Positions 8,046 through 16,377 of a stretch of DNA of 30,589 bases are shown piece by piece. The position numbers and the translations under genes are program-made. Every line of letters begins with the position of its first letter. Positions within the stretch are counted from its first letter, which is position 1. Source of the DNA: an uncultured Neomegalonema sp. (GTDB lineage: Bacteria > Pseudomonadota > Alphaproteobacteria > Rhodobacterales > Rhodobacteraceae); assembly GCA_937944035.1 (NCBI GenBank), contig CALDZQ010000153.1:1-30589 (forward strand). The letters run 5' to 3'. The notes beneath the pieces are model-generated. The model was not told the origin of the DNA. It worked only from the letters and a program-made list of their open reading frames with translations, and ran no database searches.

Positions 8046-8141
8046 TTTCACCGGGAGTGCGCAGCACGACCACGCGCTCGCCCGCCCCACGGGCGTGTGC
8101 GTCCCGCCAAAGGCGGTCCACCCCCTCCCCGGTCGACCGCT
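8046..8141 (+). repeat. Multi-hairpin repeat family 3, copy D (between pentapeptide gene start and g15 start)
   Basis: Matches copy B along its length and copy C at the 5' end. Confidence 0.85.
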
Positions 8142-8181
8142 TTTTTCTTCCCCCTCCCCCCAACACGGACTCCCCGCACCC

Positions 8182-11100
8182 ATGTCCACCCTCGTCCTCA
8201 CCGCTGCCGGAGCCGCCATCGGCGGCGCGGCCCTCCCCGCAGGCGTCGGCTTCCTCGGCGCGACCATCTCCGGCGCGGCCATCGGGTCGGGCATCGGCGG
8301 CGTGTTGGGCAGCGCCCTCGACCAGCGCCTCTTCGGCCCCGGCGCGCAAGTCCGCCAAGGTCCGCGCCTCACCAATCTCGACGTTGTCACCTCCACCGAG
8401 GGCGCGCCGGTCCCCCGCGTCTTCGGGCGTATGCGCCTCGCGGGACAAGTCATCTGGGCCACCCGCTTCAGGGAAACCGCCACTGACAGCAGCACGGGCG
8501 GCAAAGGGGGCGGCCCCGCCTCGCGCGATTTCACCTACTCCGTCAGCGTCGCCATCGCTCTGTGCGAAGGCCCGATCGCGGGCATCGGTCGCCTGTGGGC
8601 CGACGGCCAGCCGATGGACCTCAGCGGCGTCACCCGCCGCCTGCACCACGGCACAGAGAACCAGCCCCCCGACCCCCTCATCGCAGCGCTGACCCCCGAC
8701 ACCCCTTCCTACGCGGGCACAGCCTACATCGTCTTCGAGGACTTGCCGCTGACCCCCTACGGCAACCGCCTCCCCCAGATCACGGTCGAGGTCCGCCGCC
8801 AGCCCGTCCCCCCCGCCGGGCACGAGGACGGCCCCAACCTCCCCGCGCTGATCGAGGGCGTCGCCCTCTCCCCCGGCTCAGGTGAGTTCGCGCTCTCCAC
8901 CCAACCCGTCCGCCGCATCACGGGCGAGGGCATCTACGAGTCCGAGAACGAAAACAACACCGCCGGACAGCCCGACTTCCTCACCGCCATCGACCAGCTG
9001 GAGGCAACCGCCCCGAATTGCCGCTCGGCCCTGCTGATCGTCTCGTGGTTCGGCACAGACCTGCGCGCGGGCCACTGCCAACTCCACCCCGGCACCGACC
9101 GCGTCACCAAAGAGACCGATCCCCTCGCATGGCTCGTGTCGGGCGAAACCCGCAGCTCCGCCCACGCAATCAGCACAGACGACACCGCCAACGCCGTCTA
9201 CGGCGGCACACCGTCCGATGTCTCCGTCTTCCAAGCCATCCGCGAGCTGACCGCGCGGGGCATAGAAGTCACCTTCTACCCCTTCATCCTGATGGACATC
9301 CCCGCCAACAACCCGATGAGCCAACCCGCCTTCCCGTGGCGCGGACGCATCGAGGGGGCAGGGCAGGGCGACATCGACACCTTCTTCGGCACGGCCGCCC
9401 CGTCCGACTTCGCCCCCTGGACAGGCGCAACCATCCCCTACACCGGCCCGGATGAGCGCACCCTGCGCCGCATGATCCTCCACTACGCCCATCTCTGCGC
9501 CGCTGCCGGAGGGGTCGAGGCATTCTGCATCGGGTCAGAGCTTCGCGGCATCACCACCACCCGCGCGGGCAACACGTATCCTGCTGTCCCCGCCCTGCGC
9601 GCCCTCGCCGCCGATGTGCGCGCCATCCTGCCAAGCACCAAGATCAGCTACGCCGCCGACTGGTCCGAATACGCCAACCACCGCTTGTCAGACGGCACAC
9701 TGACCTTCCATCTCGACCCGCTGTGGGCCGACCCGAATATCAACTTCATCGGCATCGACAACTACCTGCCGCTGAGCGATTGGCGCACGGGCGGCGACCA
9801 TGCCGACGCGGCAAACGCCAACAGCGTCTACGACCTCGCCTACCTCACCGCCAACGTGGAGGGCGGCGAATACGCCGACTGGTTCTACGCCACGCCAGCC
9901 GACCGCGCCGCCCAAACCCGCACCCCGCTGACAGACACCGCCCACGGCGAGCATTGGGTCTTCGGCGTCAAGCGGCTGCGCGACTGGTGGTCCAACCCCC
10001 ACCACAACCGCCCCGCTGGCGTGCGCGAGGCGACCCCGACCGCATGGCAACCCCAATCCAAACCGATCCGCTTCACCGAAACCGGATGTCCCGCCGTCGA
10101 TCTGGGTGCGAACCAGCCCAACGTTTTCCACGACCCCAAATCGTCCGAATCCGCATTCCCCTACCACTCACGCGGCGTCAGGGATGACGCGATGCAGCGC
10201 CGCTATCTCCAAGCCATATTAGCCCATTGGCAAAACGATCCGATGGTCGAGCGCAGCTACGTCTGGACATGGGACACGCGCCCCTACCCGGATTACCCCC
10301 TGCGCAGCAGCGTCTGGAGCGACGGCCCCGCCTATGACAAAGGCCACTGGATCACGGGCCGCCTGGATGCCGCCCCCCTCGCCGAACTGGTCGCCGAGAT
10401 CTGCGCCAGCGCCGGAGAGACCCGCATCGATGTAAGTCGCCTGCACGACCTCGTCCACGGCTACACCATCGACCGCACCATGAGCGCCCGCGACGCCCTC
10501 GCCCCGCTGATGCTGGTCTACGGCTTCGACGCGGTGGAAAGCGACGGCGTCATCCGCTTCACCCCGCGCGGCGCGGCCCCCGTCGCCACGCTGGACGAGG
10601 CTGATCTCGTCGAGTCCGAAGACCCCTTCACCCTGACACGCGCGCAGGAAACCGATCTCCCCCGCGCCGTGCGTCTGGGCTACATCCGCGCCGATGCCGA
10701 ATACAGGCGCGGCACGGCGGAGGCGACGCTGGAGCCGACCGCCTCCAACCGCATCGACGCCAGCGACCACGCCATCGCGCTCCCCGGCGGCAAAGCCCAA
10801 GCCGCCGCCAACCGCTGGCTGTCCGAGGCCCATGTCGCCAAAGACAGCGCCGCCTTCGCGCTGCCCCCCTCCCGCCTCGCGCTGGAGCCGGGTGATACGA
10901 TCACGCTGGTGAATGACGGTAACAGCTACCCCCACCGCCTCGCCGCGATTTCAGAGGCCGACAGCCGCCAGATCGACGCCATCCGCGTCGCCCCCGATCT
11001 CTACATCCCGTCCGATGCGCCGGAATCCCAGCCCGAACCGCCCGCCCTGCCGTTGCAAACCCCCGTCATCGTCGAATTCCTCGACCTCCCGCTCCTCAAA

Positions 11101-11973
11101 GGCTCCGAAAGCCCCGCCCCCCACATCGCCGCTTTCGCAAGCCCGTGGCCCGGCGCGGTCGCCCTCTACAGCGCCCCGTCCGAGGCCGATTTCGCCCTGA
11201 CCCTCACCCTGGAACGCCCCGCCACACTGGGCCGCACCCTCACCGCGCTCACCCCAAGCGCCCCCTCCCGCTGGAGCCGAACAAGCGTCGACATCAAACT
11301 CTCCTCCGGCAGCCTGCGCAGCCGCGACCGCCTCAGCACCCTCGCCGGAGCCAACGCCGCCGCCCTGCGCACCCCGTCCGGCGCGTGGGAGGTGATCCAG
11401 TTCCGCGAGGCATCGCTGACGGCCCCGCAAACCTACCGCCTCACGGGCCTGCTGCGCGGTCAGGCCGGAACCGAACCGCTCATCACAGACCTGCCCGCCG
11501 GAACCCGCTTTATCCTCATCACCGACGCGCTCAAACAACTGCCCCTCACGGCTGAGGATACCGACCGCGAAGTCCACTACCGCTATGGCCCCGCAAACCT
11601 GCCCTTCGACGCCGAACCCTTCCGCGCCACCACCCACACCCCCTCCGGCGCAGCCCTGCGCCCCTACGCCCCCGCCCATCTGCGCACGACCACCACCGAC
11701 AACGGAGACCTCTCGATCACATGGACCCGCCGCAGCCGCGTCGGCGGCGACAGCCTGCAAACCGAACCGCCCATCGGTGAAGAATCCGAACGCTATCTGG
11801 TCGAATTCTCCACCCCCTCCGGCCCCCTGCGCAGTTTTGAGACAACCTCCCCCGCCACCACCTACACAGCCGCCCAACAATCCTCTGACGCCGCCACGCG
11901 GCCCCTAACCATCCGCATCGCCCAACTCTCCGCTGTGATCGGCCCCGGCTTTTTCGCTGAGATCGTGGTCTAA
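8182..11973 (+). CDS. GTA megatron / host-specificity baseplate protein (g15-like; GTA_TIM + phage-tail domains), 1263 aa
   Basis: ATG 8182 (MSTLVLTAAGAAIGG); EGAPVPRVFGRMRLAGQVIWATRF; SGEFAL; VSWFGTDLRAG; YRRMILHYAHL-like RRMILHYAHLCAAAGGVEAFCIGSELRG; ISYAADWSEY; SKPIRFTETGCPAVDLGANQPNVF; WTWDTRPYP; HWITGRL. Confidence 0.95.
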   Translation: MSTLVLTAAGAAIGGAALPAGVGFLGATISGAAIGSGIGGVLGSALDQRLFGPGAQVRQGPRLTNLDVVTSTEGAPVPRVFGRMRLAGQVIWATRFRETATDSSTGGKGGGPASRDFTYSVSVAIALCEGPIAGIGRLWADGQPMDLSGVTRRLHHGTENQPPDPLIAALTPDTPSYAGTAYIVFEDLPLTPYGNRLPQITVEVRRQPVPPAGHEDGPNLPALIEGVALSPGSGEFALSTQPVRRITGEGIYESENENNTAGQPDFLTAIDQLEATAPNCRSALLIVSWFGTDLRAGHCQLHPGTDRVTKETDPLAWLVSGETRSSAHAISTDDTANAVYGGTPSDVSVFQAIRELTARGIEVTFYPFILMDIPANNPMSQPAFPWRGRIEGAGQGDIDTFFGTAAPSDFAPWTGATIPYTGPDERTLRRMILHYAHLCAAAGGVEAFCIGSELRGITTTRAGNTYPAVPALRALAADVRAILPSTKISYAADWSEYANHRLSDGTLTFHLDPLWADPNINFIGIDNYLPLSDWRTGGDHADAANANSVYDLAYLTANVEGGEYADWFYATPADRAAQTRTPLTDTAHGEHWVFGVKRLRDWWSNPHHNRPAGVREATPTAWQPQSKPIRFTETGCPAVDLGANQPNVFHDPKSSESAFPYHSRGVRDDAMQRRYLQAILAHWQNDPMVERSYVWTWDTRPYPDYPLRSSVWSDGPAYDKGHWITGRLDAAPLAELVAEICASAGETRIDVSRLHDLVHGYTIDRTMSARDALAPLMLVYGFDAVESDGVIRFTPRGAAPVATLDEADLVESEDPFTLTRAQETDLPRAVRLGYIRADAEYRRGTAEATLEPTASNRIDASDHAIALPGGKAQAAANRWLSEAHVAKDSAAFALPPSRLALEPGDTITLVNDGNSYPHRLAAISEADSRQIDAIRVAPDLYIPSDAPESQPEPPALPLQTPVIVEFLDLPLLKGSESPAPHIAAFASPWPGAVALYSAPSEADFALTLTLERPATLGRTLTALTPSAPSRWSRTSVDIKLSSGSLRSRDRLSTLAGANAAALRTPSGAWEVIQFREASLTAPQTYRLTGLLRGQAGTEPLITDLPAGTRFILITDALKQLPLTAEDTDREVHYRYGPANLPFDAEPFRATTHTPSGAALRPYAPAHLRTTTTDNGDLSITWTRRSRVGGDSLQTEPPIGEESERYLVEFSTPSGPLRSFETTSPATTYTAAQQSSDAATRPLTIRIAQLSAVIGPGFFAEIVV

Positions 11974-12067: not shown

Positions 12068-12137
12068 GTCATACTCCGCGAAGGCGGGGTATCCAGCCTC
12101 GCGGCCTGAAAGACTGTCTCTCCATCAATCGGGTCGG
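12068..12137 (+). repeat. REP/MITE-like family 2 (GTCAT..CCGCGAAGGCGG..ATCCAG), copy 1, right end degenerate
   Basis: gtcatactccgcgaaggcggggtatccagcctcg..cctgaaaga..tctcc..caatcg aligns with 14292-14360. Confidence 0.75.
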
Positions 12138-12198: not shown

Positions 12199-13296
12199 AT
12201 GACCCCCAACCTCGCCCTGACCCTCCTCGCCGCATCCCAAGCGCAAAAGCATGTCACCATCAACGAAGCCCTCACCCGCATCGACGCCGCCGCGCAAACC
12301 GCCGTCCTCACCCGCACCCTCACCGCCCCGCCAACCACCCCCGCTGACGGCGACCGCTACCTGATCGACGGCCCCGCCACGGGCGATTGGCAAGGGCATG
12401 AGGACCAGATCGCCGCATGGGACGCCCCCGCCCAAGGCTGGCTCTTCCTCACCCCGCATCCGGGCTGGCGCGTCTGGATCATCGACGAGGACACACTCCT
12501 CGCCCGCACCGCCGCCAGCACATGGCAGCCTGTGGGCGGCGGCGGTCAGCTCAACCCCGTGGCGGGCGACCTGCTCGGCGTCAACACCAGCGCGGATGCC
12601 GCCAACCGCCTCGCCGTCGCCTCCCCCGGCGTGCTCCTCACCCACGAGGGCGCGGGCATCCGGACAAAGCTCAACAAAGCCGCCGCCTCTGATACCGCGT
12701 CGCTGCTGCTGCAAACCAACTACAGCACCCGCACCGAGTTCGGCCTTGTTGGCGATGATGACACCGTCCTCAAAACCTCCCCCGACGGCAGTGCCTTCAC
12801 CGAGGCAATGCGCATCCCCGCCGCCACCGCCCGCCCGGGTTTCCCCCAAGGCATCACCCTCGCCGGAGCCACCCCGCTCACCCGCTACGAGGAGGGCGAC
12901 TTTACGCTGACACTCGGTCCGGGCGCGACGTCGGGCCAGTGGGATGCGGCCACGGGCCTTGCCGTCGAGAGCGCCCGCTACACCCGCATCGGCAACCTCG
13001 TCCACCTGCGCGCCGCCTTCCGCTTCACCGGACTGCCGGACGCCCCGATAACCGCCGCCACCTCGCGCAGCCTCGACATGGCCCCCTTCACGCCGACCGA
13101 TGCGGCCCCGACCGACTCCTTCGACCACGCGGGCATGGCCACCATCGTCGGCCCCCTATCGAACGGAGGCAGCGCGTTTGCGTTTGCGTATCTGAACAAG
13201 ATCGGGCGGCTGTTCCTGTCCCTAGCACCCCCCGCCATCAACCCGCCGGAGACTTCGGCGCTGATCCTCCTGAACCTGACCTACGAGGCCGACTGA
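12199..13296 (+). CDS. DUF2793 tail fibre protein (rcc00171-like N-terminus) with a C-terminal tip domain
   Basis: TPNLAL.LLAASQAQKHVTINEAL..ID; GDRYLI...ATGDWQGHEDQIAAW; NRLAVAS.GVLLTH; LNKAAASDTASLL.Q; EFGLVGDDD; tip with RYEEGDFT...ARYTRIGNLVHL. Confidence 0.85.
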   Translation: MTPNLALTLLAASQAQKHVTINEALTRIDAAAQTAVLTRTLTAPPTTPADGDRYLIDGPATGDWQGHEDQIAAWDAPAQGWLFLTPHPGWRVWIIDEDTLLARTAASTWQPVGGGGQLNPVAGDLLGVNTSADAANRLAVASPGVLLTHEGAGIRTKLNKAAASDTASLLLQTNYSTRTEFGLVGDDDTVLKTSPDGSAFTEAMRIPAATARPGFPQGITLAGATPLTRYEEGDFTLTLGPGATSGQWDAATGLAVESARYTRIGNLVHLRAAFRFTGLPDAPITAATSRSLDMAPFTPTDAAPTDSFDHAGMATIVGPLSNGGSAFAFAYLNKIGRLFLSLAPPAINPPETSALILLNLTYEAD

Positions 13297-13299
13297 TCC

Positions 13300-14043
13300 A
13301 TGCCGACCCCGTCCATCGTCCGCGCCAACAACCCCTGCGCCCTGCGCCCCTTGTCACGGGGGCGCTGGAAAGGACAGACCGGAACCATACGCACCCCCGG
13401 CGGCGCGTATTGCGCGTTTTCAGACCCCGTCTGGGGCGTGCGTGCGGGCCTTCGCAATCTCGACACCTACCGCCGCCGCCACCGCCTCACCAGCGCGGCC
13501 CAGATCATCGCCCGCTGGGCACCCAAATCTGACAACAACCCCGAAAGCGCCTACGCCCGCTTCATCGCCCGCCGCCTCGGCCTCTCGGTCCTGCAACCGA
13601 TCCCGTTCGACTACGACCACACCAGCCGCCTTGTCGCCTCCATCATCCGGTTCGAGACGGGAACCAACGCCGTCGGCCCCGACACCATCGCCCAAGCAAT
13701 GGCCCTAATGGCCGCCGAGGAAGAAACCGCAGGCCGCGACCCGGCCCCCTATCTGGTCGAGAGCGCCCCGCTCAAACCGCTCACCCGTTCCAAAGAAATC
13801 GCGCTGGGCGGGGGCGCGGCCACCATCGGCGCGGGCGGCGCACTCGCCTACGCCCCCGAAGCCATAGACGCCGCCCGCTCCGCCATCGACACAGGCCGCG
13901 ACGCGGCACAGTCCATCGGCATCTCCAAACCCGCCGCCAGCCTGGGCGAGTTCGCCTGTATCGGCAGCTTTCTGATCCTGCTGCTGTTCGGCCTCGCCAT
14001 CCTCGCCAACCGCCTCCTCGCCCGCTACCGCGCCGAAAGATGA
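13300..14043 (+). CDS. Putative endolysin (phage 'virion protein/P5-like' lysozyme-type family) with C-terminal hydrophobic helices
   Basis: RANNPCALR..W.GQTG..Y..FSDP.WGVRA...L..Y...L....IIARWAP..DNN..AY...IA...G...LVASIIRFETG motif string; tail SKEIALGGGAATIGAGG and FLILLLFGLAILANR. Starts 3 nt after the fibre stop. Confidence 0.65.
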   Translation: MPTPSIVRANNPCALRPLSRGRWKGQTGTIRTPGGAYCAFSDPVWGVRAGLRNLDTYRRRHRLTSAAQIIARWAPKSDNNPESAYARFIARRLGLSVLQPIPFDYDHTSRLVASIIRFETGTNAVGPDTIAQAMALMAAEEETAGRDPAPYLVESAPLKPLTRSKEIALGGGAATIGAGGALAYAPEAIDAARSAIDTGRDAAQSIGISKPAASLGEFACIGSFLILLLFGLAILANRLLARYRAER

Positions 14044-14046
14044 CCC

Positions 14047-14214
14047 ATGACCTCGACCCTGACGATCCCCTTGCCCAACACCCTCACCCTGACCCGCACC
14101 ATCAGTCCGAGCGGCGACCTGTCCCTGCACATCACCGACCCCTCCGGCACGATCCACTACAGCGAAGACATCACCGCCCCGCAGACCGTCGACACACCGG
14201 AGCAAATCCTCTGA
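14047..14214 (+). CDS. Small 55-aa Thr-rich protein MTSTLTIPLPNTLTLTRTISPSGDLSLHITDPSGTIHYSEDITAPQTVDTPEQIL (not in ORF track)
   Basis: ATG 3 nt after the endolysin stop (TGA-ccc-ATG, same spacing as fibre-endolysin TGA-tcc-ATG); C-ending codons as in neighbouring GTA genes. Confidence 0.6.
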   Translation: MTSTLTIPLPNTLTLTRTISPSGDLSLHITDPSGTIHYSEDITAPQTVDTPEQIL

Positions 14215-14291
14215 TTGCGTCACTTCTGCGCGGCCCTCGCTACGGCTTGGCTCTGATTATCGCAGTAAAGCGCTTACATCAGCAAAGCAGA

Positions 14292-14409
14292 GTCATCATC
14301 CGCGAAGGCGGATGATCCAGTCTCGTTTCCTGAAAGATATTTCTCCGGCAATCGAGTCTGGATTCTTTGCTGGAGCCTGTCCTCCGCGAAGGCGGGGGCA
14401 GAGAATGAC
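14292..14409 (+). repeat. REP/MITE-like family 2, copy 2, with nested hairpin insertion
   Basis: Reverse complement of 15604-15699 except that the second loop carries tggagcctgtcctccgcgaaggcggggg. Confidence 0.85.
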
Positions 14410-14422
14410 GGAAGATTTCTGA

Positions 14423-14719
14423 ATGACCCTCCTCGCCCGCCTCCTCACACTCCCCCGCTGGCTCCTCCTCGCCACCGCAGCAACAACCGCCATCACCACC
14501 CACACCGCCGCCTACCACCTCGGCGCAGCCTTCGCCTTCCGCGCAGGCTTCGACAACGGCGCAGCCACCACGCTCAACCGCCTCGCCGCCCAAGCCGCCC
14601 GCCGCACCGCCAACCAGATCGAAGACCGCCTCAATGCCGAAACCGCTTCTCATCCTCACAATGGCGAGCGCCCTGACGGCCTGCGCTGCGGTCCCTCCGC
14701 CCGTGACTGCCCCGAATAA
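14423..14719 (+). CDS. Putative inner-membrane spanin (Rz-like), 98 aa
   Basis: N-terminal hydrophobic segment, Ala-rich helix LNRLAAQAARRTANQIEDRLNAE, C-terminal RCGPSARDCPE; its 3' end overlaps a lipoprotein gene. Confidence 0.6.
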   Translation: MTLLARLLTLPRWLLLATAATTAITTHTAAYHLGAAFAFRAGFDNGAATTLNRLAAQAARRTANQIEDRLNAETASHPHNGERPDGLRCGPSARDCPE

Positions 14720-14873
14720 CTGCCTCAGCTGCCGCGCCCTCCCGCCGCCGAGTTCCAGCATCACCGACACCCCTAAAACCCGCGCGCTGACGGACGTGAT
14801 CTTCACCGTATGGGCCTGCACCTGCGCCCCCGACCTCGCCGCCGCCAAAGGACTGAAATGCTCCCCCGCCTGA
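14634..14873 (+). CDS. Putative outer-membrane lipoprotein spanin (Rz1-like), 79 aa
   Basis: Lipobox ALTA-C17, Pro-rich mature part (VPPPVTAP, LPPPSS), several Cys; starts 86 nt inside the upstream gene in another frame, GAAGA RBS. Confidence 0.65.
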   Translation: MPKPLLILTMASALTACAAVPPPVTAPNNCLSCRALPPPSSSITDTPKTRALTDVIFTVWACTCAPDLAAAKGLKCSPA

Positions 14874-15538
14874 CCGACAGAGCCGCCCTTACCCTGATGG
14901 GCGCAACCCTCGCCATCGCCTTCACCGCCGCGCTGACCTTCACCCGTGACAGCACCCGCCCCTGCACCGAGCGCGTGTTTCTCAGCGATAACGACTCCTA
15001 TTCATGGGGCACAATCACCCGCTGGGGCAGCGGCTATCTCACCGCTTTCCACGTCATCGACAGCGGCCAGATCGTCGACGGCCCCGCCGTATCAAGCATC
15101 GGCGACCTGCCCGCCACCGATTTCAGCTTTCTGACGGGCGCAGCCATCAAATCCGACCCCGCCAGCATCCCTGCCCCCCAAGGCGCGGTGACGCTGGAGG
15201 GTTTTCCCGCCCGCGCGACCATGCGAGAGCGGCTGAACGGCACAGTCTACGCACCGGACACTGTCCCGCCCGGCATATGGGTCATGCTCGACCACCCCGA
15301 ACCGCTGGTGGGTGGCTTCTCCGGTGGCTGTGTGCGCGATGCTGATAACGAGGTCGTCGCCGTCATCATGGGCGCATCCTCAATGAAGCTCGACGGCCAA
15401 ACCCGCCACTTCGCCCGCGTCATCCCAATCCGCGACGCCCTGCACGAGATCCAGGGCGCACCGCCCCCAAACACCCGCCCCCTGACCCTGCTCCCCCGCC
15501 TGATCCCGGCGTTACAGCAATGGCCCGAACGCGGATGA
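14858..15538 (+). CDS. Membrane-anchored trypsin-like (S1) serine protease, 226 aa
   Basis: ATG 14858 after AAAGGA, overlapping the lipoprotein gene end; TM ALTLMGATLAIAFTAALTF; triad motifs YLTAFHV (His), TDFSFL (Asp), GFSGGCV (Ser). Confidence 0.75.
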   Translation: MLPRLTDRAALTLMGATLAIAFTAALTFTRDSTRPCTERVFLSDNDSYSWGTITRWGSGYLTAFHVIDSGQIVDGPAVSSIGDLPATDFSFLTGAAIKSDPASIPAPQGAVTLEGFPARATMRERLNGTVYAPDTVPPGIWVMLDHPEPLVGGFSGGCVRDADNEVVAVIMGASSMKLDGQTRHFARVIPIRDALHEIQGAPPPNTRPLTLLPRLIPALQQWPERG

Positions 15539-15603
15539 TTTCCTCTGTCCCGGATTTGATGCTACCGCATTCACATCTTTTCGTGTTCGACGAACAAGGC
15601 ACA

Positions 15604-15699
15604 GTCATTCTCTGCGAAGGCAGAGAATCCAGACTCGATTGACTGAGAAATAATCTTTCAAGACACGAGGCTGGATCATCTGCCTTCGCAGATGATGAC
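15604..15699 (-). repeat. REP/MITE-like family 2, copy 3 (complete, two terminal hairpins)
   Basis: gtcattctctgcgaaggcagagaatccag ... ctggatcatctgccttcgcagatgatgac; inverted relative to copies 1 and 2. Confidence 0.85.
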
Positions 15700-15816
15700 A
15701 GTGTTTCTTTTTGAGGAGCTACCGAAATCCTCACTCAAGAGACTTTCTTACATAGATAGTGAATCGCAAATGCTCTGACCGGGGCCTCCCAACGGCGATA
15801 CAATCGAAAGCCCTGA

Positions 15817-16377
15817 ATGCCCACGCCGAGCCTACGCCTGAACCGCGCCGCCGAATACGCGGATAAATTCCTGAAAATCACCGCCGCCACCGCCCTTCTC
15901 GGCGGGGCCGGAGCCTTCACCTTTCTGAGCGATGCCCTGCGCGACAGCATCCAAGACTATTTCGGCATCAACGCCATCGTCGCCCGGATTGAGAGCATCG
16001 AGGCCCGCCTGCCCGGCCAGAAAGTCGCGATCTACGACGCGTCGTTCTCTTATATCGAAGGCCCGTGCGTGATCGGCGACGTATGCATCGCCCGCTTCAA
16101 AATCCGCCGCACCCCTTACGGCGCAGACTGCTCACAGCCCCGTGTGACGCCCTATGTCGATAATCACGGCGGCGTCAAACACCCTGCCGAATACATCGGC
16201 GGCAGCTTACGCGCGGGCGCGGATGTCTGGTCCCAAATCGAAATCCGCTTCCGCGTCCCCGCCAACGCACAGGCCGGCCGCGCCGCCTATGCCTCGCTGC
16301 AAGAATACCACTGCCCCAACGGCACGGTATCGGAGGAGTCGATCTCGTTGAGTTTTATCCTCAAAGCGGGCGCTTGA
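15817..16377 (+). CDS. Single-TM protein with 4-Cys periplasmic beta domain, 186 aa, unknown function
   Basis: Hydrophobic ITAATALLGGAGAFTFL, short coiled segment, Cys in GPC, DVC, ADC, YHC; GAAAG RBS. Confidence 0.7.
   Translation: MPTPSLRLNRAAEYADKFLKITAATALLGGAGAFTFLSDALRDSIQDYFGINAIVARIESIEARLPGQKVAIYDASFSYIEGPCVIGDVCIARFKIRRTPYGADCSQPRVTPYVDNHGGVKHPAEYIGGSLRAGADVWSQIEIRFRVPANAQAGRAAYASLQEYHCPNGTVSEESISLSFILKAGA

What the first reader, a model, noticed from the sequence alone, without database searches (positions are those of the whole stretch)
14858..15538. Membrane-anchored trypsin-like protease translationally coupled to the o-spanin gene
Seen: the start and AAAGGA RBS lie inside the last codons of the lipoprotein gene; N-terminal TM; His, Asp and Ser motifs all present (LTAFHV, TDFS, GFSGG). 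A protease is not a standard member of holin-endolysin-spanin cassettes. Inference: it could release or activate the membrane-tethered endolysin, process spanins, or degrade an S-layer/RTX coat during release. The two RTX proteins in this window are conceivable substrates.
Basis: inference. Interest (0 to 1): 0.72.

Follow-up and report, generated by a model that had tools for sequence, protein, structure and literature searches.

The report
Periplasmic serine protease in lysis cassette
The gene is a real, conserved, membrane-tethered trypsin-fold protease whose start overlaps the end of the outer-membrane spanin gene at the end of a gene-transfer-agent lysis operon. Its relatives sit in, or are fused to, phage cell-wall-lysis genes, so it looks like an undescribed helper of cell lysis whose target is still unknown.

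Summary
ORF 14858-15538 (226 aa) starts 16 nt inside the o-spanin gene behind an AAAGGA site. It has one N-terminal hydrophobic helix and His65/Asp88/Ser155, which are invariant in 50 relatives. A high-confidence model (pLDDT 90) matches only chymotrypsin-fold proteases (Deg2 Z 16.1, DegS 15.4, MarP 14.9). It has no PDZ domain and reaches no Pfam, NCBIfam or PHROG threshold.

The link to lysis genes recurs:
- All nine Neomegalonema-type loci keep the order g15, endolysin, i-spanin, o-spanin, protease. The 13-16 nt overlap was confirmed in eight of them.
- Two Mu-like viral contigs carry the same cassette, with a different lysozyme that also has a membrane tail.
- A more distant sister clade has this domain fused to SLT, GH108 or CHAP lysins, including the endolysin slot of P2-like viral contigs.
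- One derived clade of lone chromosomal lipoproteins has no lysis neighbours. It includes a second copy in this genome.

Best reading: an accessory lysis peptidase acting in the periplasm on wall-associated peptide or protein links. I put the lysis role at about 0.75 and this particular target at about 0.4. Cleavage of the membrane-tailed endolysin, as MarP does to RipA, is the main rival. Nothing supports the RTX proteins as substrates.

The parts
14858..15538 (+). Protease gene, 226 codons plus stop
   Evidence: ORF and sequence. 26 close homologues. dN/dS 0.12-0.17. Model with pLDDT 90 has the chymotrypsin fold.
14847..14852 (+). AAAGGA ribosome-binding site inside the last codons of the o-spanin gene
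   Evidence: Read. An equivalent AAAGGA-like site precedes the ATG in six of the seven related loci where a start was found.
14858..14873 (+). 16-nt overlap between the protease start and the o-spanin end
   Evidence: A 13-16 nt overlap is seen in 7 of the 8 related genomes. A 26-nt overlap occurs in the Mu-like contig L009.
14885..14941 (+). N-terminal hydrophobic helix (residues 10-28), preceded by Arg4 and Arg8: a signal-anchor placing the C-terminal domain in the periplasm
   Evidence: Hydropathy; modelled helix at residues 6-25. Relatives have either a similar helix or a lipoprotein signal such as LAGC, LAAC or LLGAC. The topology itself is inferred from the positive-inside rule.
14963..15457 (+). 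Chymotrypsin-fold catalytic domain (residues 36-200) with His65 (15050-15052), Asp88 (15119-15121) and Ser155 (15320-15322)
   Evidence: Invariant columns. Fold matches: Deg2 Z 16.1 (rmsd 2.5 over 151 residues), DegS Z 15.4, Rv3671c/MarP Z 14.9. Foldseek E down to 1.8e-8.
15458..15535 (+). Pro-rich C-terminal tail (residues 201-226), low model confidence, no PDZ domain
   Evidence: pLDDT 61-68. No Pfam domain.
13300..14043 (+). Endolysin with a C-terminal two-helix membrane tail (Enc34-type catalytic domain)
   Evidence: phrog_873 endolysin, E 1.4e-30. Tail helices at 167-185 and 218-236. Alignment of nine orthologues. Architecture described in PMC8943055.
14047..14214 (+). 55-aa ORF with no membrane helix, conserved in L001 and L002
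   Evidence: tblastn identity 82% and 46%. No family match.
14423..14719 (+). i-spanin candidate (98 aa, N-terminal hydrophobic segment)
   Evidence: Sequence. Conserved in all 8 related loci.
14634..14873 (+). o-spanin candidate (79 aa, lipobox LTA-C17, Pro/Cys-rich), overlapping the i-spanin gene
   Evidence: Sequence. Conserved in all 8 loci. Weak similarity to the L009 o-spanin, including the DTP(K/Q)T motif, pairwise E 0.002.
14285..14400 (.). Palindromic REP/MITE-like element between the 55-aa ORF and the spanin genes
   Evidence: Inverted repeats I1 and I3. 28 matches in the 2.97-Mb genome.
15591..15714 (+). Second copy of the element. It folds into a long hairpin followed by UUUCUUUUU and is the likely end of the operon.
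   Evidence: Fold energy -59.8 kcal/mol, z -9.6. Inverted repeat I2. A promoter-like site for the next ORF lies at 15775-15804.

Best explanation
The gene encodes a small serine endopeptidase of the chymotrypsin (PA-clan) fold. It is closest in structure to HtrA/Deg protease domains but has no PDZ domain. Shown: the fold; the invariant His65-Asp88-Ser155 triad; purifying selection; an N-terminal hydrophobic helix (a lipoprotein signal in many relatives); and its position as the last gene of an endolysin, i-spanin, o-spanin, protease operon at the 3' end of a GTA-type tail cluster, with its start overlapping the o-spanin stop. Inferred: the enzyme is exported by Sec and held on the periplasmic face of the inner membrane. 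It would be made together with the spanins when the GTA lysis genes fire. At lysis it would cut peptide or protein links of the envelope: proteins that staple the outer membrane to the wall, or wall peptides. That would add a second lytic activity to the muramidase and clear the way for spanin-driven membrane fusion. The target class is inferred mainly from more distant relatives, in which the same domain is the C-terminal module of endolysin-type proteins (SLT, GH108 + PG_binding_3, PG_binding_1 + CHAP). My odds: active periplasmic serine protease 0.9; functional part of the lysis machinery about 0.75; this particular target class about 0.4.
For: Fold and active site: model pLDDT 90.1. An unbiased search of 48,161 chains gave 121 chains at Z 8 or more, and all 50 entries listed are chymotrypsin-fold proteins, nearly all proteases. 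The top hits are Deg2 at 16.1, DegS at 15.4 and MarP at 14.9. Foldseek gave E 1.8e-8. His65, Asp88 and Ser155 are invariant in 50 sequences. 24 of 33 distant relatives match Pfam Trypsin_2.

Linkage: gene order and overlap are conserved in the Neomegalonema-type loci, and cysE follows the cassette in three of them. Mu-like viral contigs L009 and L035 carry lysozyme-with-membrane-tail, i-spanin, o-spanin, protease, followed by a DUF2730-like gene in L009 (a weak Pfam match, below threshold) and gp27 and a large terminase-like ORF in both.

Fusions: P0048 is GH108 + PG_binding_3 + protease. P0042, P0052 and P0058 are PG_binding_1 + CHAP + protease. P0050 is SLT + protease. P2-like viral contigs have signal peptide + SLT + protease between a holin-like gene and overlapped spanins.

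Tree: GTA clade A is sister to a clade in which phage members branch early and the lone chromosomal copies form one nested clade; the fused forms make up the sister clade.

Independence from the endolysin: lone chromosomal lipoprotein paralogues show that the enzyme has a substrate in the envelope without any phage endolysin nearby. P0033 fuses the domain to a metzincin-like protease motif, which hints at protein substrates.
Against: There is no biochemical evidence at all. Chymotrypsin-fold enzymes are not known to cut the D-amino-acid peptides of Gram-negative walls. This rests on my own knowledge; the bacteriolytic Lysobacter L5 protease is only one of many tied structural hits at Z 14.0. 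The fused relatives are distant (profile E 2.5e-7 to 7.8e-4), so their role may not transfer. The GTA and Mu-like cassettes are probably one ancient cassette rather than independent inventions, because the endolysin tail and the o-spanin are weakly alike (pairwise E 4e-4 and 2e-3). The family is rare. It gave no hit in 50,697 phage genomes. It gave only weak hits to other trypsin-type genes in sampled genomes: 14 of 400 further Rhodobacterales genomes at E 6e-8 or weaker, and 2 of 400 further Alphaproteobacteria at E 1e-8 or better. So it is not needed for lysis in general.
Confidence: 0.4

Rival explanations
1. MarP-like processing of the endolysin. The protease cuts the membrane-tailed endolysin, in the conserved linker before the first tail helix or in the loop between the two helices. 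This frees or activates the muramidase once the tail has opened the membrane.
For: Every unfused, lysis-linked protease sits beside an endolysin with a C-terminal two-helix tail, an uncommon architecture (PMC8943055). The catalytic domain is Enc34-type in the window and GH24 in L009 and L035. The tail and its PLxPLxRS(K/R) motif persist while the catalytic domain differs. How such endolysins reach the wall is stated to be unknown. There is a precedent: membrane-anchored periplasmic MarP cleaves the wall hydrolase RipA (PMC6628586), and MarP is a top structural neighbour at Z 14.9. Glu148 near the catalytic serine is conserved in at least 90% of the 50 sequences, which would fit cleavage after Arg or Lys; this last point is inference only.
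Against: By the positive-inside rule the catalytic domain and the conserved linker lie in the cytoplasm, and the periplasmic loop is the most variable part of the protein. According to the paper, Enc34 and M4Lys-type endolysins lyse cells without such a protease. Relatives are fused to soluble endolysins that have no tail. Lone chromosomal paralogues have no endolysin neighbour.
Confidence: 0.22
2. A spanin-directed or timing function. The protease trims the i- or o-spanin, or degrades an inhibitor of lysis, and so sets when outer-membrane disruption happens.
For: The overlap with the o-spanin gene is conserved in the GTA loci and in L009. In fused P2-like forms the protease domain is followed directly by the spanin genes.
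Against: Overlapping starts are common in phage operons and show no interaction. Spanins are near-universal neighbours of endolysins, so the association does not discriminate. To my knowledge no spanin is known to need proteolysis beyond signal peptidase II. Lone paralogues lack spanin neighbours.
Confidence: 0.08
3. Not a lysis protein. It would be a periplasmic housekeeping or cargo protease, for example for envelope quality control, exclusion, or RTX or S-layer turnover, that merely rides at the end of the operon.
For: A whole clade of close relatives are lone chromosomal lipoproteins next to housekeeping genes (DAO/GCV_T, DegT, queG-like), including a second copy on contig C370 of this genome. 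Operon ends are typical moron sites.
Against: The position and start overlap are conserved across genomes only about 60% identical in this protein. The same position is kept in Mu-like phages whose large terminase-like ORFs are only 26-28% identical. Domain fusions to endolysins occur in a sister clade. The RTX gene is not a conserved neighbour. The lone copies are a nested, derived clade.
Confidence: 0.2
4. An inactive protease-fold protein used only as a binding or structural module.
For: Some chymotrypsin-fold proteins, such as MamO and haptoglobin, are among the structural hits and act without proteolysis.
Against: His, Asp and Ser, and the GxSGG loop, are invariant in all 50 sequences. 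That pattern is expected only if catalysis is under selection.
Confidence: 0.04

Closest known systems
HtrA/Deg protease domains (MEROPS S1C: DegS, DegP, DegQ, plant Deg2)
   Same: Best structural matches: Deg2 Z 16.1 (rmsd 2.5 over 151 residues) and DegS Z 15.4. Same His-Asp-Ser order and a GxSGG-type serine loop. Like DegS, it is periplasmic and membrane-anchored.
   Different: No PDZ domain; only a 26-residue Pro-rich tail. About 170-residue compact core. Sequence identity 14-21%. The Pfam Trypsin_2 score of 16.5 is below the 27.6 cut-off. Its genomic home is a lysis cassette, not a stress regulon.
MarP (Rv3671c) of Mycobacterium tuberculosis
   Same: A membrane-anchored periplasmic chymotrypsin-like serine protease that cleaves a wall hydrolase, RipA (PMC6628586). 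Structural Z 14.9. It is the best functional analogue for the endolysin-processing rival.
   Different: MarP has four N-terminal membrane helices, is a host housekeeping and stress protein of an actinobacterium, and is not linked to phage lysis genes. No specific sequence relationship was found; a PDB profile search returned no protease hit.
Modular endolysins with several catalytic or binding domains
   Same: Sister-clade relatives carry this protease domain as the C-terminal module behind SLT, GH108 + PG_binding_3 or PG_binding_1 + CHAP. In P2-like contigs this is in the canonical endolysin slot.
   Different: In the window the domain is a separate, membrane-tethered protein encoded after the spanins. 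In what I searched, a chymotrypsin-fold module is not among the described endolysin catalytic domains.
Bacteriolytic S1 proteases of Lysobacter (L5, alpha-lytic protease family)
   Same: Chymotrypsin-fold secreted serine proteases known to lyse bacteria. L5 is a structural hit at Z 14.0, rmsd 2.8 over 142 residues.
   Different: They are secreted predatory enzymes with pro-domains, and they act mainly on Gram-positive interpeptide bridges (my own knowledge). The match is no closer than many other proteases.
LypA/LypC of the Caulobacter crescentus GTA lysis hub
   Same: Trypsin-like serine peptidases whose catalytic serine is required for GTA-mediated host lysis (PMC13236601).
   Different: LypA and LypC are large cytoplasmic proteins with CARD, ATPase or endonuclease domains, and they work without a holin-endolysin cassette. 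The protein here is small, periplasmic and sits in a classical endolysin-spanin cassette.
Accessory lysis proteins: Mu gp25 releasin and mycobacteriophage LysB
   Same: Extra, lineage-specific lysis-cassette proteins. In L009 the protease sits between the spanin genes and a DUF2730-like gene, which is the region of gene 24 in phage Mu. LysB (title and abstract of PMC5707550) is an esterase of the mycolyl-arabinogalactan linkage; that it thereby detaches the outer layer from the wall is my own knowledge. That is the kind of job proposed here.
   Different: No homology. The releasin is a cytoplasmic, non-enzymatic membrane protein, and LysB is an esterase.

Membership tests
PA-clan (chymotrypsin-fold) serine peptidases | Two-beta-barrel chymotrypsin fold | tested here: met
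   Model pLDDT 90.1. 121 chains at Z 8 or more in an unbiased search, and every one of the 50 listed entries has the chymotrypsin fold, top Z 16.1. Foldseek E 1.8e-8.
PA-clan (chymotrypsin-fold) serine peptidases | Catalytic triad in the order His, Asp, Ser, with a GxSGG serine loop | tested here: met
   His65, Asp88, Gly153, Ser155 and Gly156 are invariant in 50 sequences.
PA-clan (chymotrypsin-fold) serine peptidases | Peptidase activity | not testable with these tools
   Needs an enzyme assay of the purified domain and its Ser155Ala variant.
Pfam PF13365 Trypsin_2 | Score at or above the gathering threshold (27.6 bits) | tested here: not met
   16.5 bits, E 0.015, for the window protein. 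24 of 33 distant relatives match at E 0.01 or better, best 6.4e-20. It is therefore a divergent relative outside the curated model.
HtrA family (S1C) | One or two C-terminal PDZ domains after the protease domain | tested here: not met
   Only 26 residues follow the domain. No PDZ hit. Structural matches stop at residue 200-205.
MarP-type membrane protease | Polytopic N-terminal membrane domain plus a periplasmic protease that cleaves a wall hydrolase | tested here: inconclusive
   One N-terminal helix rather than four (PMC6628586). Cleavage of the neighbouring endolysin was not testable.
Caulobacter LypA/LypC (CARD-NLR-like GTA lysis peptidases) | Trypsin-like domain joined to CARD and ATPase (LypA) or endonuclease (LypC) domains; cytoplasmic | tested here: not met
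   226 aa with a single domain and an N-terminal export or anchor helix. Architecture of LypA and LypC from PMC13236601.
Phage lysis-cassette component | Conserved position among endolysin, holin and spanin genes in unrelated elements | tested here: met
   Nine GTA-type loci, two Mu-like contigs, and fused forms in P2-like contigs. Exception: one derived clade of lone chromosomal copies.
Phage lysis-cassette component | Loss of the gene changes lysis | not testable with these tools
   Needs genetics in a reconstituted cassette.
SAR (signal-anchor-release) lysis proteins | N-terminal membrane helix rich in weakly hydrophobic residues that can leave the membrane | tested here: inconclusive
   The Gly/Ala/Ser/Thr fraction of the helix is 0.32-0.58, with hydropathy 1.65-2.3, in clade A. 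This is intermediate and cannot be decided from sequence. Many relatives are lipoproteins instead.

The most novel reading that the evidence does not exclude
This family would be a new functional class of lysis protein: a periplasmic, membrane-tethered serine protease that GTAs and Mu-like phages encode after the spanins, and that P2-like and other phages fuse to their endolysins. It would either sever the protein or peptide staples between the outer membrane and the wall, or free the membrane-tailed Enc34-type endolysin from its holin-like tail. The second option would explain how that endolysin class reaches the wall.
Probability: 0.35. Interest if true: 0.78.

Novelty: new variant of a known kind. 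Interest (0 to 1): 0.6.

Why it matters
Lysis of Gram-negative cells by phages and gene transfer agents is described as holin, endolysin and spanin, plus a few recently found extras such as the releasin and disruptin. A protease that stays with these genes in three kinds of elements (GTA, Mu-like, P2-like), as a separate gene or fused to the endolysin, would add another component. It would also give a testable handle on two open points. The first is how membrane-tailed endolysins reach the wall. The second is whether links between outer membrane and wall must be cut for spanins to work. In addition, it shows a GTA lineage carrying a complete phage-type lysis cassette on the structural cluster, unlike Rhodobacter (separate locus) and Caulobacter (LypABC). 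If the catalytic mutant has no phenotype, the gene is an ordinary small periplasmic protease.

Tried and rejected
- As a result the genomic contexts of most metagenomic relatives (P0027-P0060) could not be read. Contexts come only from the search for related loci and the genome search.
- **PDB sequence search.** A profile search found no protease, only chance hits at E 0.028 or worse.
- **Family libraries.** NCBIfam gave nothing. PHROGs gave only phrog_9683 'protease' at E 0.011 for the window protein and nothing for the phage-borne relatives.
- **Cultured phages.** tblastn of four family members against 50,697 phage genomes gave no match.
- **IMG/VR.** A scan with the close family found nothing.
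- **Failed scans.** Alignment A3 was too diverse for locus scans.
- **Complex prediction.** Complex prediction with protease residues 30-226 and endolysin tail 135-247 scored 0.00, no verdict. This counts neither for nor against binding.
- **First structure model.** The 23-row model was mediocre (pLDDT 73) and gave weak Foldseek matches at E about 1e-3. It was replaced by the 50-row model.
- **Mobile cassette idea, rejected.** The flanking REP/MITE copies do not mark a mobile spanin-protease cassette. The element has 28 matches across the genome, with another at 12068-12135. Related genomes keep the same gene order.
- **RTX substrates, rejected.** No RTX homologue lies near the protease in any related locus.
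- **Two weak alphaproteobacterial hits.** L058 and L059 are generic membrane-anchored Trypsin_2-like proteins in chromosomal contexts and were uninformative.
- **Pseudomonas phage JBD24.** It has the same endolysin catalytic domain without a tail and without a protease. This does not discriminate between the readings.
Full report
**1.
The ORF runs from the ATG at 14858 to the TGA at 15536-15538, giving 226 residues. AAAGGA lies at 14847-14852, 5 nt before the ATG. The preceding 79-codon lipoprotein gene (lipobox LTA-C17) ends with TGA at 14871-14873, so the two genes overlap by 16 nt. A longer frame from 14810 exists, but homologues start at the equivalent of 14858. Residues 10-28 are hydrophobic and preceded by Arg4 and Arg8. 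The motifs LTAFHV, TDFS and GFSGG are present and give His65, Asp88 and Ser155.

**2. It is a selected gene and a protease by fold.**
- dN/dS is 0.12-0.17 for pairs that are not saturated.
- Pfam Trypsin_2 reaches only 16.5 bits against a cut-off of 27.6. NCBIfam and PHROGs give nothing useful. A PDB profile search finds no protease.
- A profile search of 1.84 billion representatives found 35 proteins at E 0.001 or better. Of 33 family members scanned (the window protein and 32 of these relatives), 24 match Trypsin_2.
- Across 50 sequences down to about 20% identity, His65, Asp88, Gly115, Gly153, Ser155 and Gly156 are invariant.
With 50 rows the model reaches pLDDT 90.1 and pTM 0.82, with 93-98 over residues 31-200.
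- An unbiased comparison with 48,161 solved chains gives 121 chains at Z 8 or more, and every one of the 50 entries listed has the chymotrypsin fold. The best are Deg2 at Z 16.1 (rmsd 2.5 over 151 residues), DegS at 15.4, Deg9 at 15.1, and MarP and MamO at 14.9. Foldseek agrees, with E down to 1.8e-8.
- No PDZ domain follows; the last 26 residues are Pro-rich and poorly modelled.
- The protein is therefore a compact HtrA-like protease domain on an N-terminal anchor. In many relatives the anchor is replaced by a lipoprotein signal such as LAGC, LAAC or LLGAC. The whole family is thus predicted to be tethered in the periplasm. The topology is inferred, not shown.

**3. Setting in the window.**
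The window holds a GTA-type tail cluster:
- g13 at 2769-3617;
- g15 with GTA_TIM at 8095-11970;
- a DUF2793 fibre at 12199-13293.

Next come:
- an endolysin with an Enc34-type catalytic domain and a two-helix C-terminal tail at 13300-14043 (phrog_873, E 1.4e-30; helices);
- a conserved 55-aa ORF;
- an i-spanin candidate at 14423-14719;
- the overlapping o-spanin candidate at 14634-14873;
- the protease.

No separate holin is evident. That fits the report that Enc34 and M4Lys-type endolysins lyse cells on their own through their tail, by an unknown route (PMC8943055).

Downstream of the protease, a copy of a dispersed palindromic element folds into a -59.8 kcal/mol hairpin (z -9.6) followed by a U-run. 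The next ORF has its own promoter-like site. The protease is therefore the last gene of the operon. The element has 28 matches in the genome, so the pair that brackets the spanin-protease genes does not mark a mobile cassette.

**4. The link to lysis genes recurs.**
- **(a) GTA-type loci.** All eight genome loci found are seven 'uncultured Neomegalonema' MAGs and one Rhodobacteraceae MAG. Each has g15 (where the contig reaches that far), a variable fibre, the endolysin, i-spanin, o-spanin and the protease. In seven of them the protease start overlaps the spanin stop by 13-16 nt; the script returned no start in the eighth. In three loci a small membrane ORF and cysE follow.
- **(b) Mu-like viral contigs.** L009 and L035 from IMG/VR encode a GH24 lysozyme that also ends in a membrane tail, an i-spanin, an overlapped o-spanin lipoprotein, and then a protease 31-33% identical to the window's (32-35% by tblastn). 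In L009 the protease overlaps the spanin end by 26 nt. A DUF2730-like gene (L009, weak Pfam match; L035 by architecture only), gp27 and a large terminase-like ORF follow. The two phages are deeply diverged, with these terminase-like ORFs only 26-28% identical, yet their proteases are 50% identical.
- **(c) One old cassette.** The endolysin tails and o-spanins of the window and L009 are weakly alike (pairwise E 4e-4 and 2e-3), sharing PLxPLxRS(K/R) and DTP(K/Q)T motifs. The GTA and Mu-like cassettes are therefore probably one old cassette in which the catalytic domain was exchanged, not independent inventions.
- **(d) Fusions, the independent evidence.** In the sister clade the same domain is fused behind endolysin modules. 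Its own hallmark there is RRYF..WGGWxTAxHV..LDAAL..GMSGG. Examples are GH108 + PG_binding_3 (P0048, also matching the holin-associated muramidase model), PG_binding_1 + CHAP (P0042, P0052, P0058) and SLT (P0050).
- **(e) P2-like contigs.** Three viral contigs have P2-type capsid, tail X, GpR and GpS genes. Together with a fourth contig (L061) that carries the same SLT-protease fusion, they place a signal-peptide + SLT + protease gene in the endolysin slot. It sits between holin-like genes and overlapped spanins.

**5. The exception.**
A tight clade of lipoprotein paralogues lies next to housekeeping genes with no lysis genes nearby. One is a second copy on contig C370 of this genome. In the tree this clade is nested within a group whose early branches include the phage copies.

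The family is rare:
- no match in 50,697 phage genomes;
- only weak hits to other trypsin-type genes (E 6e-8 or weaker) in 14 of 400 further Rhodobacterales genomes;
- 2 weak hits in 400 further Alphaproteobacteria at E 1e-8 or better, both generic membrane proteases.

**6. Mechanism.**
What is shown is the fold, the catalytic residues, selection, the anchor type and the conserved genomic linkage. What is inferred is the place of action (the periplasm) and the role in lysis.

I favour an envelope target: proteins that tie the outer membrane to the wall, or wall peptides. Four observations point that way:
- The domain is repeatedly built into wall-degrading, wall-binding proteins.
- Lone paralogues imply a host substrate.
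- One relative is fused to a metzincin-like protease motif.
- All forms are periplasmic.

The main rival is processing of the membrane-tailed endolysin, as MarP does with RipA. It is attractive because every unfused, lysis-linked copy sits beside such an endolysin, and because the tail is kept while the catalytic domain differs. Against it, the positive-inside rule puts the conserved linker in the cytoplasm, the periplasmic loop is the most variable part of the protein, and tail-less fused forms exist. A complex prediction gave no verdict.

Spanin processing, a non-lysis role and an inactive fold are less likely, for the reasons given under rival explanations. RTX substrates have no support, because no RTX homologue accompanies the protease elsewhere.

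**7. Comparison and novelty.**
By fold the protein is an HtrA-like PA-clan peptidase. It fails the defining PDZ feature of HtrA and the Pfam threshold. It is unrelated in architecture to the cytoplasmic LypA and LypC peptidases that drive GTA lysis in Caulobacter (PMC13236601). Literature searches found no description of a periplasmic protease as a lysis-cassette member or of a chymotrypsin-fold endolysin module. I therefore rate it a new variant of a known kind: a known enzyme type in an undescribed, recurrent lysis context. All functional statements await experiment.

Earlier notes of this scan on the same window pointed me to the Enc34 paper and to the repeat elements. I checked both points myself.

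Noticed in passing
G000 contig C370 (L053) 4300-4796: A second, partial paralogue of the protease lies at a contig end in the same genome. It has a lipoprotein signal (LSAC) and is 33% identical to the window copy. It sits next to a queG-like gene and membrane-protein genes, with no lysis genes nearby.
   Followed up: partly
L009 433-1143 and L035 1489-2268: Mu-like viral contigs encode GH24 (T4-type) lysozymes that end in a C-terminal membrane tail. The tail resembles the Enc34-type tail and shares its PLxPLxRS motif. This suggests the tail is a movable module joined to unrelated catalytic domains.
   Followed up: partly
L062 5101-7323 (also L061, L063, L064): P2-like viral contigs carry, in the endolysin slot, a secreted SLT transglycosylase fused to the protease domain. 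Overlapped i- and o-spanin genes follow (lipobox LMTAC). The true start of the fused gene is uncertain, because a 105-aa multi-helix ORF overlaps its 5' part.
   Followed up: partly
window 14285-14400, 15591-15714 and 12068-12135: A palindromic element of about 100 nt has 28 matches in the 2.97-Mb genome. The copy after the protease forms a -59.8 kcal/mol hairpin with a U-run and probably ends the operon.
   Followed up: partly
protein P0026 (metagenomic): A 163-aa gene call joins the C-terminal part of an o-spanin to the second barrel of the protease and lacks the His and Asp region. It is likely a deletion variant or a broken copy of the cassette.
   Followed up: no
window 14047-14214: A 55-aa ORF without a membrane helix lies between the endolysin and the spanins. 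It is conserved in L001 (82%) and L002 (46%) and matches no family.
   Followed up: no
window 15817-16377: A 186-aa ORF with an N-terminal hydrophobic segment and its own promoter-like site (15775-15804) is conserved only in the closest relative, L001. It lies outside the cassette in the other genomes, where a small membrane ORF and cysE follow instead.
   Followed up: partly
proteins P0033 and P0035 (metagenomic): Two relatives have unusual fusions. P0033 is the protease domain followed by a metzincin-like HExxHxxGxxH region. P0035 is a coiled-coil N-terminal region, a membrane helix, then the protease.
   Followed up: no
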